Shown: positions 33,912-47,112 of the stretch, piece by piece
Layout: each line of letters opens with the position of its first letter
How positions within the stretch are numbered: the first letter of the stretch is position 1
Source: an uncultured SAR116 cluster alpha proteobacterium
GTDB lineage: Bacteria; Pseudomonadota; Alphaproteobacteria; Puniceispirillales; Marisalimonadaceae
Assembly: GCA_902578805.1 (NCBI GenBank)
Contig: CACHEH010000005.1
Coordinates: 5,500 to 69,499 of the forward strand
Direction of reading: 5' to 3'
DNA: 64,000 bases
Translations under genes and position numbers: made by a program
Notes under the pieces: generated by a model
Seen by the model: the letters and a program-made list of their open reading frames with translations, nothing else
Told to the model about the DNA's origin: nothing
Databases searched by the model: none

Positions 33912-34376
33912 TTACCAGAATTTCCACCATGGCTTATCTTTTGTACCATTAGAAGAGTTTGTATCTTTTAGAGGTTCGATATCTTTTTTAACAGTTTCTA
34001 ATCCACCTGTACCAGTTTGGCCAAATTTTTCCGAGGCAGCTTTTTTTGCGATTTCGTATGCTTCTGTTAATTTTACTTTAGCTTCCTCAGGTTTTTTTTG
34101 TGCACACATTTCAAAACCTTCTAACAGCATTTTTTCGACTGTATCAGCGTCAGATTTATCTATTCTAGGTAACTCTAATCTTATTCTAGCTCTTAACATA
34201 AGAAGGTTAACATCATCACATTTATCTATAAGTTTTTGAAAAATTTCTTCTGTATTAACTAATGTTCCAGCTTCCTGAGAAGACACCTCATTGCTTATAT
34301 TTTTTGTATCTTTGCTTTGAGCTTGAACAAGTAACGGGTAAATTAAAAAAACTATTATTAAAATATATCTATTCAT
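33912..34376 (-). CDS. Hypothetical exported protein
   Basis: Signal peptide (VQA-Q), two Cys, C-terminal KPWWKFW; AAGGA RBS, 10 bp after phnE stop. Confidence 0.7.
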   Translation of the reverse strand: MNRYILIIVFLIYPLLVQAQSKDTKNISNEVSSQEAGTLVNTEEIFQKLIDKCDDVNLLMLRARIRLELPRIDKSDADTVEKMLLEGFEMCAQKKPEEAKVKLTEAYEIAKKAASEKFGQTGTGGLETVKKDIEPLKDTNSSNGTKDKPWWKFW

Positions 34377-38691: not shown

Positions 38692-39264
38692 TTAACATTT
38701 CCAATTTAAAACAAAGTTTTTTTGCTCATCTGTATCAATTGATCCTGGTCTATATTTTCTTATAAATTTAATGGCATCTTTTGTGGATATTCCTAATTTA
38801 GCCAATAATAATGATGCGATTGTACCAGTTCTACCTAATCCCGCCTTACAATGTATGATAATATTTTTTTCTTTTTTTAAAAAATTTTCTAGATCCGAGA
38901 GAAGTAAATTTAACTTTAAAAGTGAATTTTTAGTAGGTATATTAAAATCATTAATTGGAAAATGTAACCAAATGAAATTATTTAATTTAATTTCCTTTAT
39001 TAAATTTCCACATCCTAGTGATTTTAATTCTGATGTTTCCGTGAGAGATAAAACAACATTAACGTTATGATTTTTAAAAATTTTCAATGTTTTTTGAATC
39101 CCAATAATTTGATTATTAGTATCTAATAAAGTGCCAGGACAACCACATAATCCTAACTTTCCAAAATTTTGAGAATAATGAAATTCATTAAAGAAAATAT
39201 TTTTTAATGGTAACCATGTAATTAGATCATCTTTGGCCAATTCATATATTGATTTAATTTCCAT
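38692..39264 (-). CDS. CX5R protein-tyrosine/dual-specificity phosphatase (CDKN3-like)
   Basis: IHCKAGLGRTG P-loop, LHFPIND, RPGSIDT-x-EQ. Confidence 0.9.
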   Translation of the reverse strand: MEIKSIYELAKDDLITWLPLKNIFFNEFHYSQNFGKLGLCGCPGTLLDTNNQIIGIQKTLKIFKNHNVNVVLSLTETSELKSLGCGNLIKEIKLNNFIWLHFPINDFNIPTKNSLLKLNLLLSDLENFLKKEKNIIIHCKAGLGRTGTIASLLLAKLGISTKDAIKFIRKYRPGSIDTDEQKNFVLNWKC

Positions 39265-42990: not shown

Positions 42991-43008
42991 TAGAAATAAA
43001 TTTGTAAC
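42991..43008 (+). promoter_or_regulatory. Putative Pho box upstream of plcP
   Basis: TAGAAAT-AAAT-TTGTAAC, 11-bp period. Confidence 0.55.
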
Positions 43009-43058
43009 AAAACCTATATATAAAAATTTAATTTAATATTAAATTACTCTTTATATTA

Positions 43059-43859
43059 ATGGTTAAACACAAAAATAAAAACTATAGAGCTATTTGGATC
43101 TCCGATATTCATTTAGGGTCAACAGGCTCGCAAGCTGAACATCTTCTCGAATTTTTAAGATATAATGAAAGTAATTATTTATATTTAGTTGGGGATATTA
43201 TTGATGGGTGGAGCTTAACTAAAAAGTGGTATTGGCCTCAATCTCATAATGATGTAATTCAAAAAATACTAAGAAAAGCGAGAAAAGGTACAAAAATTAC
43301 ATTTATTCCAGGTAATCACGATGAAGGGGCAAGAACTTTTCTGGGTATTACATTTGGTGATATTAAGATAAAAAATGAAGCTTTTCATAAAACTGCTAGG
43401 AATGAAAAATTGTGGGTAATACACGGAGACCTTTTTGATGAAGTAATGCAACATGCTAGATGGTTAGCTTACATAGGAGACTCTGCATATACCTTTCTCC
43501 TCTGGTTAAACAAATGGTTTAACAGAATAAGACGTATGCTTAACTTACCATATTGGTCGCTATCACAATTTTTAAAATTAAAAGTAAAAAAGGCTTTGTC
43601 ATTTATTTACGCTTTTGAAACTCTTATGGTTAGAGAGGCATCTAGACGTGGCTGTGATGGTGTTGTTTGTGGGCACATTCATAAGTCAGAATTGAAAAAA
43701 ATTAATAATAAAATTTATGCTAATGATGGTGATTGGGTTGAATCTCTTACTGCTCTTGTGGAACATCAGAATGGAGAGTTGGAAATTATTAATTGGGCTC
43801 TACTGGACCACAATAATGTAAATAATAAAGATTTAACCGTAACAAAAAAAATAGCATGA
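43059..43859 (+). CDS. plcP: PlcP-type phospholipase C (LpxH-like metallophosphoesterase)
   Basis: ISDIHLG, LVGDIIDGW, PGNHDE, IHGDLFD, CGHIH, NDGDWVES; coupled (ATGA) to a GT4 glycosyltransferase. Confidence 0.85.
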   Translation: MVKHKNKNYRAIWISDIHLGSTGSQAEHLLEFLRYNESNYLYLVGDIIDGWSLTKKWYWPQSHNDVIQKILRKARKGTKITFIPGNHDEGARTFLGITFGDIKIKNEAFHKTARNEKLWVIHGDLFDEVMQHARWLAYIGDSAYTFLLWLNKWFNRIRRMLNLPYWSLSQFLKLKVKKALSFIYAFETLMVREASRRGCDGVVCGHIHKSELKKINNKIYANDGDWVESLTALVEHQNGELEIINWALLDHNNVNNKDLTVTKKIA

Positions 43860-45241
43860 AAATTTTAATAGTAACAGATGCGTGGTATCCTCAAGTCAAT
43901 GGAGTAGTAAGAACTCTAGATGAAACATCCAAGAAAATAAAAAAATTAGGTCATGAGGTAAAGCTGATTACTCCAGAAGGTTTTTTAACAATACCATGCC
44001 CAACCTATCCTGAAATAAAATTATCTCTTTTTCCAGGTGCAAAAGTTTCATCTATGATCAGAGATTTTAATCCTGATTGTTTACATATTTCAACTGAAGG
44101 TCCTTTAGGTCTTGCAGCACGTGGATATGCTAGTAGAAATGGTTTGGCTTTTACTTCAGCTTATCACACTAGGTTCCCTGAGTATGTTTATGCAAGAACA
44201 AAACTTCCACTTAAAATCACTTATTCATTCTTAAGATGGTTTCACAATAGATCTGAACTGGTAATGGTGCCAACTGAAGAAGTTAAAAAAGACTTGATAA
44301 AACACAAAATTGGGAAACCTAAAATATGGTCAAGAGGTGTAGATTTAGATATTTTTAAACCAAAAAAAGGAAGAAGAAAAAATAAAAATCCAATTTTGTT
44401 AAATGTAGGAAGGGTAGCTGTAGAAAAAAATTTAGAAGAATTTTTAAAAATAGACCTGCCATATGAAAAATGGGTTGTAGGAGATGGACCCGCATTTAAA
44501 GAATTAAAGAAAAAATACCCTAAGGTAATTTTTCATGGAGCTAAGAGTAAAGAAGAGTTAGAATATTACTATAACAAAGCAGATGTATTTGTCTTTCCGA
44601 GTAAAACGGACACATTTGGCCTTGTATTATTAGAGGCTATGGCATGTGGTCTTCCTGTTGCTGCTTTCCCAGTAAGTGGTCCTTTAGATGTTATTGGTAA
44701 TTCGAATGCAGGTATTCTAAATTCTAACTTAAAAGAAGCATGTAAGAAGGCTTTGTTGATACCAAGAAAAGTGCCAAGAGAATACGCTAAAAAATTTTCA
44801 TGGGAATCAACAAGTAAAACATTTGAGTCTTACTTAGTTAGCATAAGAGACAAAGACACTACATACAACATTGAAGACAATCCTCATAAGGGTAATACTG
44901 GAATTACAAGAGCACTTCATGCGGCTAAAAACTCATGCTCAGGTTTAATTTTTGCTCTCCGAGAAGAAAGCGCTTTTAGGCAAGAAATATTTTTAGTAAT
45001 AATTTCCTTATCTGTAATAATTATTGCAGAAGTTAGTGCTATTGAAATAATATTCATGACTTTTGCAACTTCTCTCGTTTTAATTATAGAACTATTAAAT
45101 TCTAGCGTTGAAGCAGCTGTTGATAGAATATCGTTTGAATATCATGGTTTGTCTAAAAGAGCTAAGGACTACGGTTCAGCTGCTGTTATGCTGTCAATTT
45201 TTTTATGGACTTTAATTCATGGATTGGTGTTGTTTAATTAG
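43856..45241 (+). CDS. Fusion of GT4 glycosyltransferase (Agt-like) and prokaryotic diacylglycerol kinase (DgkA)
   Basis: N-terminal TDAWYPQVNGVV, TEGPLG, FPSKTDTFGLVLLEAMACG; C-terminal about 120 aa with EESAFRQE, ELLNSSVEAAVDR, SKRAKDYGSAAV; no stop between the domains. Confidence 0.88.
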   Translation: MKILIVTDAWYPQVNGVVRTLDETSKKIKKLGHEVKLITPEGFLTIPCPTYPEIKLSLFPGAKVSSMIRDFNPDCLHISTEGPLGLAARGYASRNGLAFTSAYHTRFPEYVYARTKLPLKITYSFLRWFHNRSELVMVPTEEVKKDLIKHKIGKPKIWSRGVDLDIFKPKKGRRKNKNPILLNVGRVAVEKNLEEFLKIDLPYEKWVVGDGPAFKELKKKYPKVIFHGAKSKEELEYYYNKADVFVFPSKTDTFGLVLLEAMACGLPVAAFPVSGPLDVIGNSNAGILNSNLKEACKKALLIPRKVPREYAKKFSWESTSKTFESYLVSIRDKDTTYNIEDNPHKGNTGITRALHAAKNSCSGLIFALREESAFRQEIFLVIISLSVIIIAEVSAIEIIFMTFATSLVLIIELLNSSVEAAVDRISFEYHGLSKRAKDYGSAAVMLSIFLWTLIHGLVLFN

Positions 45242-46638: not shown

Positions 46639-47112
46639 TTAAGGATTTTTAAAGAAACTGAGAGCTTCATAAAGTACTTTAAAGTTATTTTTTGATAGTA
46701 ATATAGCATTTTTAAAGTAAGAAGCTGCAATTTCATTATTACCTAGCTTCAGTTCTAATTTACCCAAAATGAGATTTATATCAGCTCTCTGGCATAACTC
46801 TATATCCAAGCAACTTAAATAGTCTGCCTTTGCAGAATCATAATTTTTAGTAAAGAAGTATGCATTGCCTCTATTAATCAAACTTTCTACCAGGTAACTA
46901 TCAGGTATATCTCTACTTTTAATATTAATAGAAAGAAGATTTATAACACTATCATAATCTTTTAATATTAATTTTTCTTTTGCTGATTCTACATTTTCAA
47001 CAAAATTAACTTTTCTTGATTTATTAAAATTGTCGTTAGTTGGTAATGCTGCTAGGGATGTAAAATTAAAACTCATAAATATAAAAAAAGGGAAAAAAAA
47101 CCTAAGAATCAT
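46639..47112 (-). CDS. Exported tetratricopeptide repeat protein
   Basis: Signal peptide (SLA-A), TPR-like LINRGNAYF...AKADY and LGKLELKLG...AASYFKNAI; AGGA RBS. Confidence 0.75.
   Translation of the reverse strand: MILRFFFPFFIFMSFNFTSLAALPTNDNFNKSRKVNFVENVESAKEKLILKDYDSVINLLSINIKSRDIPDSYLVESLINRGNAYFFTKNYDSAKADYLSCLDIELCQRADINLILGKLELKLGNNEIAASYFKNAILLSKNNFKVLYEALSFFKNP

What the first reader, a model, noticed from the sequence alone, without database searches (positions are those of the whole stretch)
43856..45241. Glycosyltransferase-diacylglycerol kinase fusion downstream of plcP: a one-protein DAG branch-point switch
Seen: one uninterrupted 461-aa frame joins a full GT4 domain (to about aa 330) through a short linker (SIRDKDTTYNIED) to a complete DgkA domain (from about 44879) that keeps the residues matching E. 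coli DgkA E28, R32, E34, E69, N72, E76, D80, K94 and D95; no ATG or clear RBS at the junction; gene is coupled to plcP and preceded by a Pho-like box. Known: PlcP releases DAG from phospholipids under P stress, Agt converts DAG to P-free glycolipids, DgkA converts DAG back to phosphatidic acid. Inference: two competing fates of DAG sit in one membrane-anchored polypeptide, which could channel DAG, anchor and trimerise the GT, and reverse lipid remodelling as ATP/P recovers. I do not know of a characterised example of this fusion.
Basis: partly seen in the sequence, partly recalled or inferred. Interest (0 to 1): 0.88.

Follow-up and report, generated by a model that had tools for sequence, protein, structure and literature searches.

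The report
Fused glycolipid synthase and lipid kinase
A marine bacterium, likely of the SAR116 group, encodes one protein that joins a sugar-lipid synthase domain to a membrane diacylglycerol kinase domain directly behind a PlcP-type phospholipase gene; it is a conserved fused form of a phosphate-starvation operon already described in Burkholderia, and it likely makes phosphorus-free lipids while recycling leftover diacylglycerol.

Summary
The fusion is real. One 461-aa frame (43856-45241) joins an Agt-type GT4 to a DgkA-type kinase and overlaps plcP by ATGA. It is conserved: in 149 genomes of the order, 52 have a DgkA and 50 of these lie in 451-513-aa frames. A second marine alphaproteobacterial order has it too (12 of 31), as does cultured Puniceispirillum marinum IMCC1322. 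Catalytic residues of both halves are near-invariant and both halves are under purifying selection. Two corrections: the 'linker' is mostly the N-terminus of this DgkA subfamily, and the Pho box is degenerate here. The gene trio is known: an unfused plcP-agt-dagK operon, all three induced by phosphate starvation, is published for Burkholderia, with DagK proposed to recycle excess DAG. Best reading: a membrane-anchored, two-exit DAG sink made during starvation, not a recovery switch; classical channelling does not apply because both sites use the same substrate. I found no paper on the fusion (nine searches). This scan noted the same fusion earlier in another genome (e1-2873943). New variant of a known kind.

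The parts
42991..43019 (+). Degenerate Pho-box-like element, three half-sites at an 11-bp period, 68-40 bases upstream of plcP
   Evidence: Alone not above shuffles (p 0.87); conserved block in 12 aligned family members and a near-consensus box at the same place in L038; rank 54 of 702 upstream regions with a matrix trained outside the family. Consensus used was recalled.
43059..43859 (+). plcP-like metallophosphoesterase (phospholipase C type), 266 aa
   Evidence: Metallophos PF00149, LpxH-like below cut-off; metal motifs DIH16, GDIID45, GNHD85, GHIH205; 57-67% identical to the first gene of unfused operons. Name inferred from context; no characterised PlcP sequence was aligned.
43856..45241 (+). 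agt::dgkA fusion gene, 461 aa (P0001)
43856..44845 (+). Agt/GTcp-type GT4 glycolipid synthase domain (aa 1-330)
   Evidence: Motifs GRVAVEKN and FPSKTDTFG, H104, D252, W316; 14 of 15 GTcp-mutated positions invariant in 47 fused sequences; GT-B fold
44840..44863 (+). True joint (about aa 329-336) between the GT C-terminal helix and the DgkA N-terminus
   Evidence: W316-to-NP distance 24-27 aa in 47 of 47 fused sequences, about 39 codons in Polynucleobacter-type unfused operons (read); pLDDT 60-70 over aa 331-370
44864..45238 (+). DgkA-type membrane diacylglycerol kinase domain (about aa 337-461): subfamily N-terminus, surface helix, three membrane helices
   Evidence: PF01219; 17 of the 18 catalysis-affecting E. 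coli residues of PMC4703834 matched, G83 is Ser; helices 350-370, 372-390, 395-425, 430-460

Best explanation
The gene encodes one polypeptide with an Agt-type glycosyltransferase joined to a DgkA-type membrane kinase, which likely works during phosphate starvation as a two-exit sink for the diacylglycerol (DAG) that the upstream PlcP is predicted to release. Shown: fusion, operon-like layout, conserved active-site residues, purifying selection, and co-inheritance with plcP. Inferred steps: PhoB likely induces plcP and the fusion together; PlcP would cut head groups from phospholipids; the GT domain would add glucose, galactose or glucuronic acid to DAG; the kinase domain would phosphorylate the surplus to phosphatidic acid, preventing DAG build-up and saving the acyl chains. 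The fusion likely adds a membrane anchor for an otherwise soluble synthase (the tether leaves the helix carrying the DAG-binding W316) and a fixed 1:1 ratio; the split of DAG between the two exits would follow passively from UDP-sugar and ATP supply. It likely arose by an in-frame deletion of roughly a dozen codons across the stop/start of a plcP-agt-dgkA operon.
For: Residues: 14 of 15 GTcp-mutated positions and 16 of 18 catalysis-affecting DgkA positions are invariant or nearly so among the fused sequences. Selection against 7 relatives at dS 0.5-1.5: dN/dS 0.05-0.085 (GT), 0.09-0.16 (kinase). Co-inheritance in 149 genomes of the order: DgkA in 52, one copy each, 50 in 451-513-aa frames (24 of them inspected directly); 51 of 52 also have plcP; 85 have neither, so the kinase is not housekeeping. 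None of the 52 has a soluble DAGK_cat protein (7 of 149 do). In the own genus 15 of 15 carriers have phnJ against 1 of 12 non-carriers (kin are not independent). Near-consensus Pho boxes (p<=0.05) upstream of plcP in 18 of 44 fused loci; PhoB-like gene in the genome (285.6 bits, cut-off 296.2). Precedent: Burkholderia plcP-agt-dagK all induced by phosphate depletion, DagK proposed to recycle excess DAG (PMC13691135); 54 of the best 80 GTDB loci are the same operon unfused. GTcp is soluble when expressed alone.
Against: No activity, lipid or expression data for any fused protein. The kinase is dispensable for the pathway elsewhere: 12 of 63 plcP genomes of the order lack DgkA (one is a scaffold gap), most alphaproteobacterial agt loci have no adjacent dgkA, and Agt alone makes glycolipids in E. 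coli. The recycling role of Burkholderia DagK is the authors' model; the passages read report no dagK mutant. The own Pho box is degenerate (p 0.87). Three very close relatives give kinase dN/dS above 1 on 2-6 changes, and one genome (G127) has a premature stop in the kinase. G83 is Ser in all fused copies, though also in 57 of 57 unfused operon copies. UDP-glucose dehydrogenase was not found in this 70% complete genome, so the glucuronosyl product is open.
Confidence: 0.62

Rival explanations
1. The fusion is functionally neutral: a chance in-frame deletion in a compact operon, fixed in streamlined genomes, with the two halves working just as the separate enzymes do.
For: 35 of 54 unfused operons already have agt and dgkA in the same frame a few codons apart (mostly Polynucleobacter, not independent). 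Split forms with their own ATG occur in 3 of 31 genomes of the second order and nest among fused ones: a fused-only clade is rejected, p-AU 9e-6. The joint is the least confident part of the model.
Against: Kept across three families and a second order at about 60% identity; no unfused agt-dgkA pair seen in 149 genomes of the own order; joint length 24-27 aa in 47 of 47 and few amino-acid changes across it within the family.
Confidence: 0.2
2. One reading: the domains regulate each other, so ATP or phosphate recovery turns DAG from glycolipid to phospholipid synthesis and reverses remodelling.
For: Short, length-constrained joint placing the GT acceptor-side helix (W316) about 35 residues before the kinase surface-helix R352; GTcp dimer residue L56 invariant in 47 of 47 while DgkA is a trimer, which could give a higher-order assembly.
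Against: DagK is induced during starvation, not recovery, in Burkholderia and Pseudomonas; no regulatory domain; a kinase cannot convert finished glycolipid back; no confident interdomain packing (pTM 0.72, joint pLDDT 60-70).
Confidence: 0.11
3. The kinase runs backwards (phosphatidic acid + ADP to DAG + ATP) and hands DAG to the tethered GT, saving the phosphate as ATP: the only reading in which channelling makes sense.
For: Explains why a kinase is induced when phosphate is scarce and why it is fused to the DAG consumer; it is the only recognisable DAG kinase in carriers.
Against: From general thermodynamics (recalled, not computed from data) the reverse step is uphill by about 20 kJ/mol or more at normal ATP/ADP; PlcP is reported to convert phosphatidic acid to DAG itself (PMC13700237); a search for the reverse reaction found no paper.
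Confidence: 0.04
4. Only the GT matters; the kinase domain serves as a membrane anchor or acts on another lipid alcohol.
For: G83S and variable Y86/E85 positions; one premature stop; PF01219 also holds undecaprenol kinases (recalled).
Against: All nucleotide-, metal- and lipid-site residues invariant, dN/dS about 0.13; E85/H87 contacts are through the backbone; best solved matches are E. coli DgkA.
Confidence: 0.03

Closest known systems
Burkholderia cenocepacia plcP-agt-dagK operon (BCAL2364-2366; PMC13691135, bioRxiv 10.1101/2023.05.30.542800; passages read)
   Same: Same three functions in the same order, tied to phosphate starvation; unfused operons of Polynucleobacter, Ralstonia and unnamed relatives are 51-67% identical per domain and their kinase has the same N-terminal motif.
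   Different: There agt and dagK are separate genes; here one polypeptide. The BCAL sequences themselves were not fetched, so that BCAL2366 is DgkA-type is inferred from relatives.
GTcp/Agt of Ca. Pelagibacter HTCC7211 and Agrobacterium (GT4 glycolipid synthase; PMC8231724 passages and section 6, PMC4796936 passages)
   Same: Both UDP-sugar motifs, H104, D252 (D256), R160, W316 (W320), L56; downstream of plcP.
   Different: GTcp is a 334-aa soluble dimer with no kinase; residue matching was by motif and numbering from the paper, not by aligning the GTcp sequence; position T162 is S/A/P here.
E. coli DgkA (PDB 2kdc, 3ze4; PMC4703834 passages)
   Same: Gap-free alignment over 109 aa, 17 of 18 catalysis-affecting residues, surface helix plus three membrane helices.
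   Different: Extra N-terminal YxIxxNP[HY]KxN motif, G83S, N-terminal 330-aa GT domain; not housekeeping in this order (97 of 149 genomes lack it).

Membership tests
Agt/GTcp GT4 glycolipid synthases | GRVAxEKN and FPSxTDTFG motifs with His-Asp dyad | tested here: met
Agt/GTcp GT4 glycolipid synthases | GT-B fold | tested here: met
Agt/GTcp GT4 glycolipid synthases | Gene directly downstream of plcP | tested here: met
   ATGA overlap; plcP upstream in fused loci
Agt/GTcp GT4 glycolipid synthases | UDP-sugar:DAG glycosyltransferase activity; homodimer | not testable with these tools
DgkA (PF01219, E. coli type) | Profile match above cut-off and three membrane helices after a surface helix | tested here: met
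   95.4 bits against 22.3
DgkA (PF01219, E. coli type) | Catalysis-affecting residues of PMC4703834 | tested here: met
   17 of 18 in P0001; G83 is Ser as in 57 of 57 unfused operon kinases
DgkA (PF01219, E. coli type) | Homotrimer with DAG kinase activity | not testable with these tools
   Inferred from homology only
plcP-agt-dagK phosphate-starvation operon | Gene order plcP, agt, kinase on one strand | tested here: met
plcP-agt-dagK phosphate-starvation operon | agt and kinase as separate proteins | tested here: not met
   Single frame, no internal start: hence a variant
plcP-agt-dagK phosphate-starvation operon | PhoB box and induction by phosphate depletion | tested here: inconclusive
   Own site p 0.87; 18 of 44 fused loci p<=0.05; rank 54 of 702; expression not tested

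The most novel reading that the evidence does not exclude
The fusion is a coupled machine: a dimer-forming glycolipid synthase tied to a trimer-forming kinase builds a higher-order membrane assembly in which the kinase sets the synthase's access to DAG (or, run in reverse, feeds it DAG while banking phosphate as ATP), so that one protein sets the phospholipid-to-glycolipid ratio of abundant ocean bacteria from the cell's ATP and UDP-sugar state.
Probability: 0.13. Interest if true: 0.75.

Novelty: new variant of a known kind. Interest (0 to 1): 0.4.

Why it matters
It ties the little-studied kinase of the PlcP pathway physically to the glycolipid synthase, and shows that in this order the kinase exists almost only as part of the phosphate-stress module. 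That makes an open question testable in one protein: why cells induce an ATP- and phosphate-consuming DAG kinase while starving for phosphate. A cultured carrier exists (P. marinum IMCC1322, SAR116_2440). It also matters for annotation: databases name these proteins 'diacylglycerol kinase' or 'glycosyltransferase', so SAR116 glycolipid synthases can be missed. The chemistry of each half and the gene trio are known, which caps the surprise.

Tried and rejected
Assembly artefact or read-through: rejected. Internal start at the joint: none. Programmed read-through in the unfused same-frame operons: not supported; the stop is mostly TAA, two have a second in-frame stop and 19 of 54 are out of frame. 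G138 as a natural GT-only form: a 10-N scaffold gap lies at the GT end. Fusion outside marine Alphaproteobacteria: the six longest kinase frames among 150 listed of 240 matches in a 401-genome phylum sample are GC-rich open frames, not GT fusions (90 matches unseen); the one 98%-coverage plasmid-collection hit (Ralstonia megaplasmid) is unfused; none in viral contigs. Sigma-70 promoter and terminator scan: nothing above shuffles. Sulfatase-family search for DAG-producing transferases (MdoB/EptA type): uninformative. Origin by transfer from beta/gammaproteobacteria: identities suggest exchange (GT median 61% against 53% for the best other alphaproteobacterial hits), but the beta/gamma set was picked by likeness and the quick trees leave the sister group open (3 long-branch rows dropped; rows above 85-90% identity collapsed), so no donor is claimed. 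Complex prediction (trimer or GT dimer) was not available; oligomer state is untested. PMC6052262 (PlcP biochemistry) is not held; the supplement of PMC4796936 (Table S2, plcP neighbourhoods) could not be read and may list SAR116 loci. Searches that found no paper on the fusion: (open-licence PMC and bioRxiv only).

Full report
Observation. The window (32% G+C) holds one stop-free frame at 43856-45241 giving a 461-aa protein, P0001. Pfam finds GT4 domains over aa 14-288 and DAGK_prokar at aa 359-459; aa 346-454 align without gaps to E. coli DgkA. The start overlaps the stop of an upstream 266-aa calcineurin-like phosphoesterase as ATGA, and there is no in-frame ATG, GTG or TTG between aa 307 and 371. 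A search with aa 300-461 gave 219 hits among 797 candidates; 116 of the 119 other proteins listed are 455-485 aa with both domains, down to 52% identity. Contigs of three of four metagenome runs laid bridge the joint without an indel. The fusion is real.

Organism. The closest named records are SCGC AAA536-G10 and AAA536-K22 (84-86% over the C-terminal part); AAA536-G10 names a family of the low-GC SAR116 subclade, order Puniceispirillales (PMC8547437, passage). The placement is inferred. A named member of the fused family is SAR116_2440 of cultured Ca. Puniceispirillum marinum IMCC1322, 476 aa, annotated only as diacylglycerol kinase.

Anatomy. The GT half has both motifs and the His-Asp dyad of GTcp, the Pelagibacter enzyme that makes glucosyl-, galactosyl- and glucuronosyl-DAG (PMC8231724, passages and section 6); 14 of 15 positions mutated there are invariant in 47 distinct fused sequences (matched by motif and numbering). 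The kinase half has 17 of the 18 residues that PMC4703834 lists as affecting catalysis (passages); the exception, G83S, is shared by 57 of 57 unfused operon kinases. Against seven relatives at dS 0.5-1.5, dN/dS is 0.05-0.085 for the GT and 0.09-0.16 for the kinase; three near-identical relatives give kinase values above 1 on 2-6 changes. The W316-to-NP distance is 24-27 aa in all 47 fused sequences, against about 39 codons in Polynucleobacter-type operons, pointing to an in-frame deletion. A model from 130 sequences (pLDDT 89.8, pTM 0.72) shows a GT-B fold, a C-terminal helix at 316-326, a less confident stretch at 331-370 and the DgkA helices (the 16-sequence model gave 72.4, and matched GT4 structures).

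Distribution. Of 149 genomes of the order (70% complete or more), 52 have a DgkA, one each; 50 lie in 451-513-aa frames (24 inspected directly; one, G127, has a premature stop), one is split over contig ends, one (G057) stands alone. plcP is in 63; 51 of the 52 have it; 12 have plcP without DgkA; 85 have neither. A soluble DAGK_cat protein is in 7, none of them among the 52. In the own genus all 15 carriers have phnJ, against 1 of 12 non-carriers. In 401 alphaproteobacterial genomes DgkA is in 55 and in a frame of 450 aa or more in 3, one from a second order, where 12 of 31 genomes have the fusion and 3 have the halves adjacent with a separate ATG. Among 1.84 billion representatives only one of the best 150 matches covers both halves. 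The best 80 of 535 GTDB loci split into 14 fused, 54 unfused plcP-agt-dgkA operons (mostly Polynucleobacter and other beta/gammaproteobacteria) and 12 kinases without the GT nearby. In a quick GT tree all fused rows fall in one group (SH-aLRT 99) that also holds a split and two GT-only rows; two changes suffice, one fusion plus one fission or two fusions.

Regulation. The element at 42991-43019 scores no better than shuffles alone (p 0.87), but 18 of 44 fused loci have a box at p<=0.05 (recalled consensus, related sequences), the element is a conserved block across the family, and a matrix trained outside the family ranks it 54 of 702, with ppk 11, phnG 28 and phnC 81. A PhoB-like gene is present just under its cut-off. 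The locus sits in a phosphate-stress island with ppk, ppx and C-P lyase genes by translation (those names are my reading of the sequences, not family searches).

Mechanism. The published model for the unfused Burkholderia operon has PlcP making DAG, Agt making glycolipids and DagK recycling the excess, with all three proteins up under phosphate depletion (PMC13691135 and the 2023 preprint, passages); Pseudomonas putida also induces DagK (PMC5082522, passages). I commit to the same chemistry in one chain (0.62): a membrane-anchored two-exit DAG sink, with partition set passively by substrate supply. Channelling needs sequential steps, which these are not unless the kinase runs backwards (0.04). 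A regulated switch (0.11) has no direct support; a neutral fusion (0.20) is the main rival and is favoured by the split forms; an inactive or non-DAG kinase is unlikely (0.03). GTcp is a dimer and DgkA a trimer, and the dimer residue L56 is invariant, so a higher-order assembly is possible but untested.

Novelty. Nine literature searches found no description of the fusion; subscription papers and the supplement of PMC4796936 were not seen. Other papers seen as passages only: PMC4796936, PMC13700237, PMC6852614, PMC13086504. Verdict: new variant of a known kind, interest 0.40.

Noticed in passing
window 17724-45241: Phosphate-stress island: ppk, ppx, arsenite exporter-like gene, C-P lyase phn genes, phosphonate ABC transporter, a dual-specificity phosphatase (38692-39264) and plcP-fusion; several share TGTAAT-type boxes (ranks 11, 27, 28, 54, 81 of 702).
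   Followed up: partly
window 46639-47112 (-) and 33912-34376 (-): Two small secreted-looking proteins; the first has a TPR match and a Pho-box-like site ranked 15 of 702, and lies beside plcP in some relatives (L006-L009).
   Followed up: no
P0101 (370 aa, 2 members): About 205 aa of PlcP joined to the last 165 aa of the fusion, the GT deleted; a deletion variant or misassembly.
   Followed up: partly
L117:3005-3589 (G057): The one free-standing dgkA of the order, between a porin-like gene and GAPDH/ArsJ-like genes downstream of a PhoR-like gene; groups with kinases of the second order.
   Followed up: partly
L138, L139, L176 (G163, G432, G565): agt and dgkA adjacent in different frames with a separate ATG, at nearly the fused spacing and nested among fused forms: likely a natural fission, a ready control for experiments.
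   Followed up: partly
L120-L123 and L017 (genus g7): plcP stands alone, agt lies elsewhere (seen in G031) and no DAG kinase of either type was found.
   Followed up: partly
P0199, P0192, P0227: Other Agt fusions among the representatives: with a phospholipid methyltransferase (PEMT), a Kdo transferase and a GT2 domain; single representatives, not checked for artefact.
   Followed up: no
L118 (G127): Premature TAA at the codon matching E. coli E34 in an otherwise intact fusion: decay or assembly error.
   Followed up: partly
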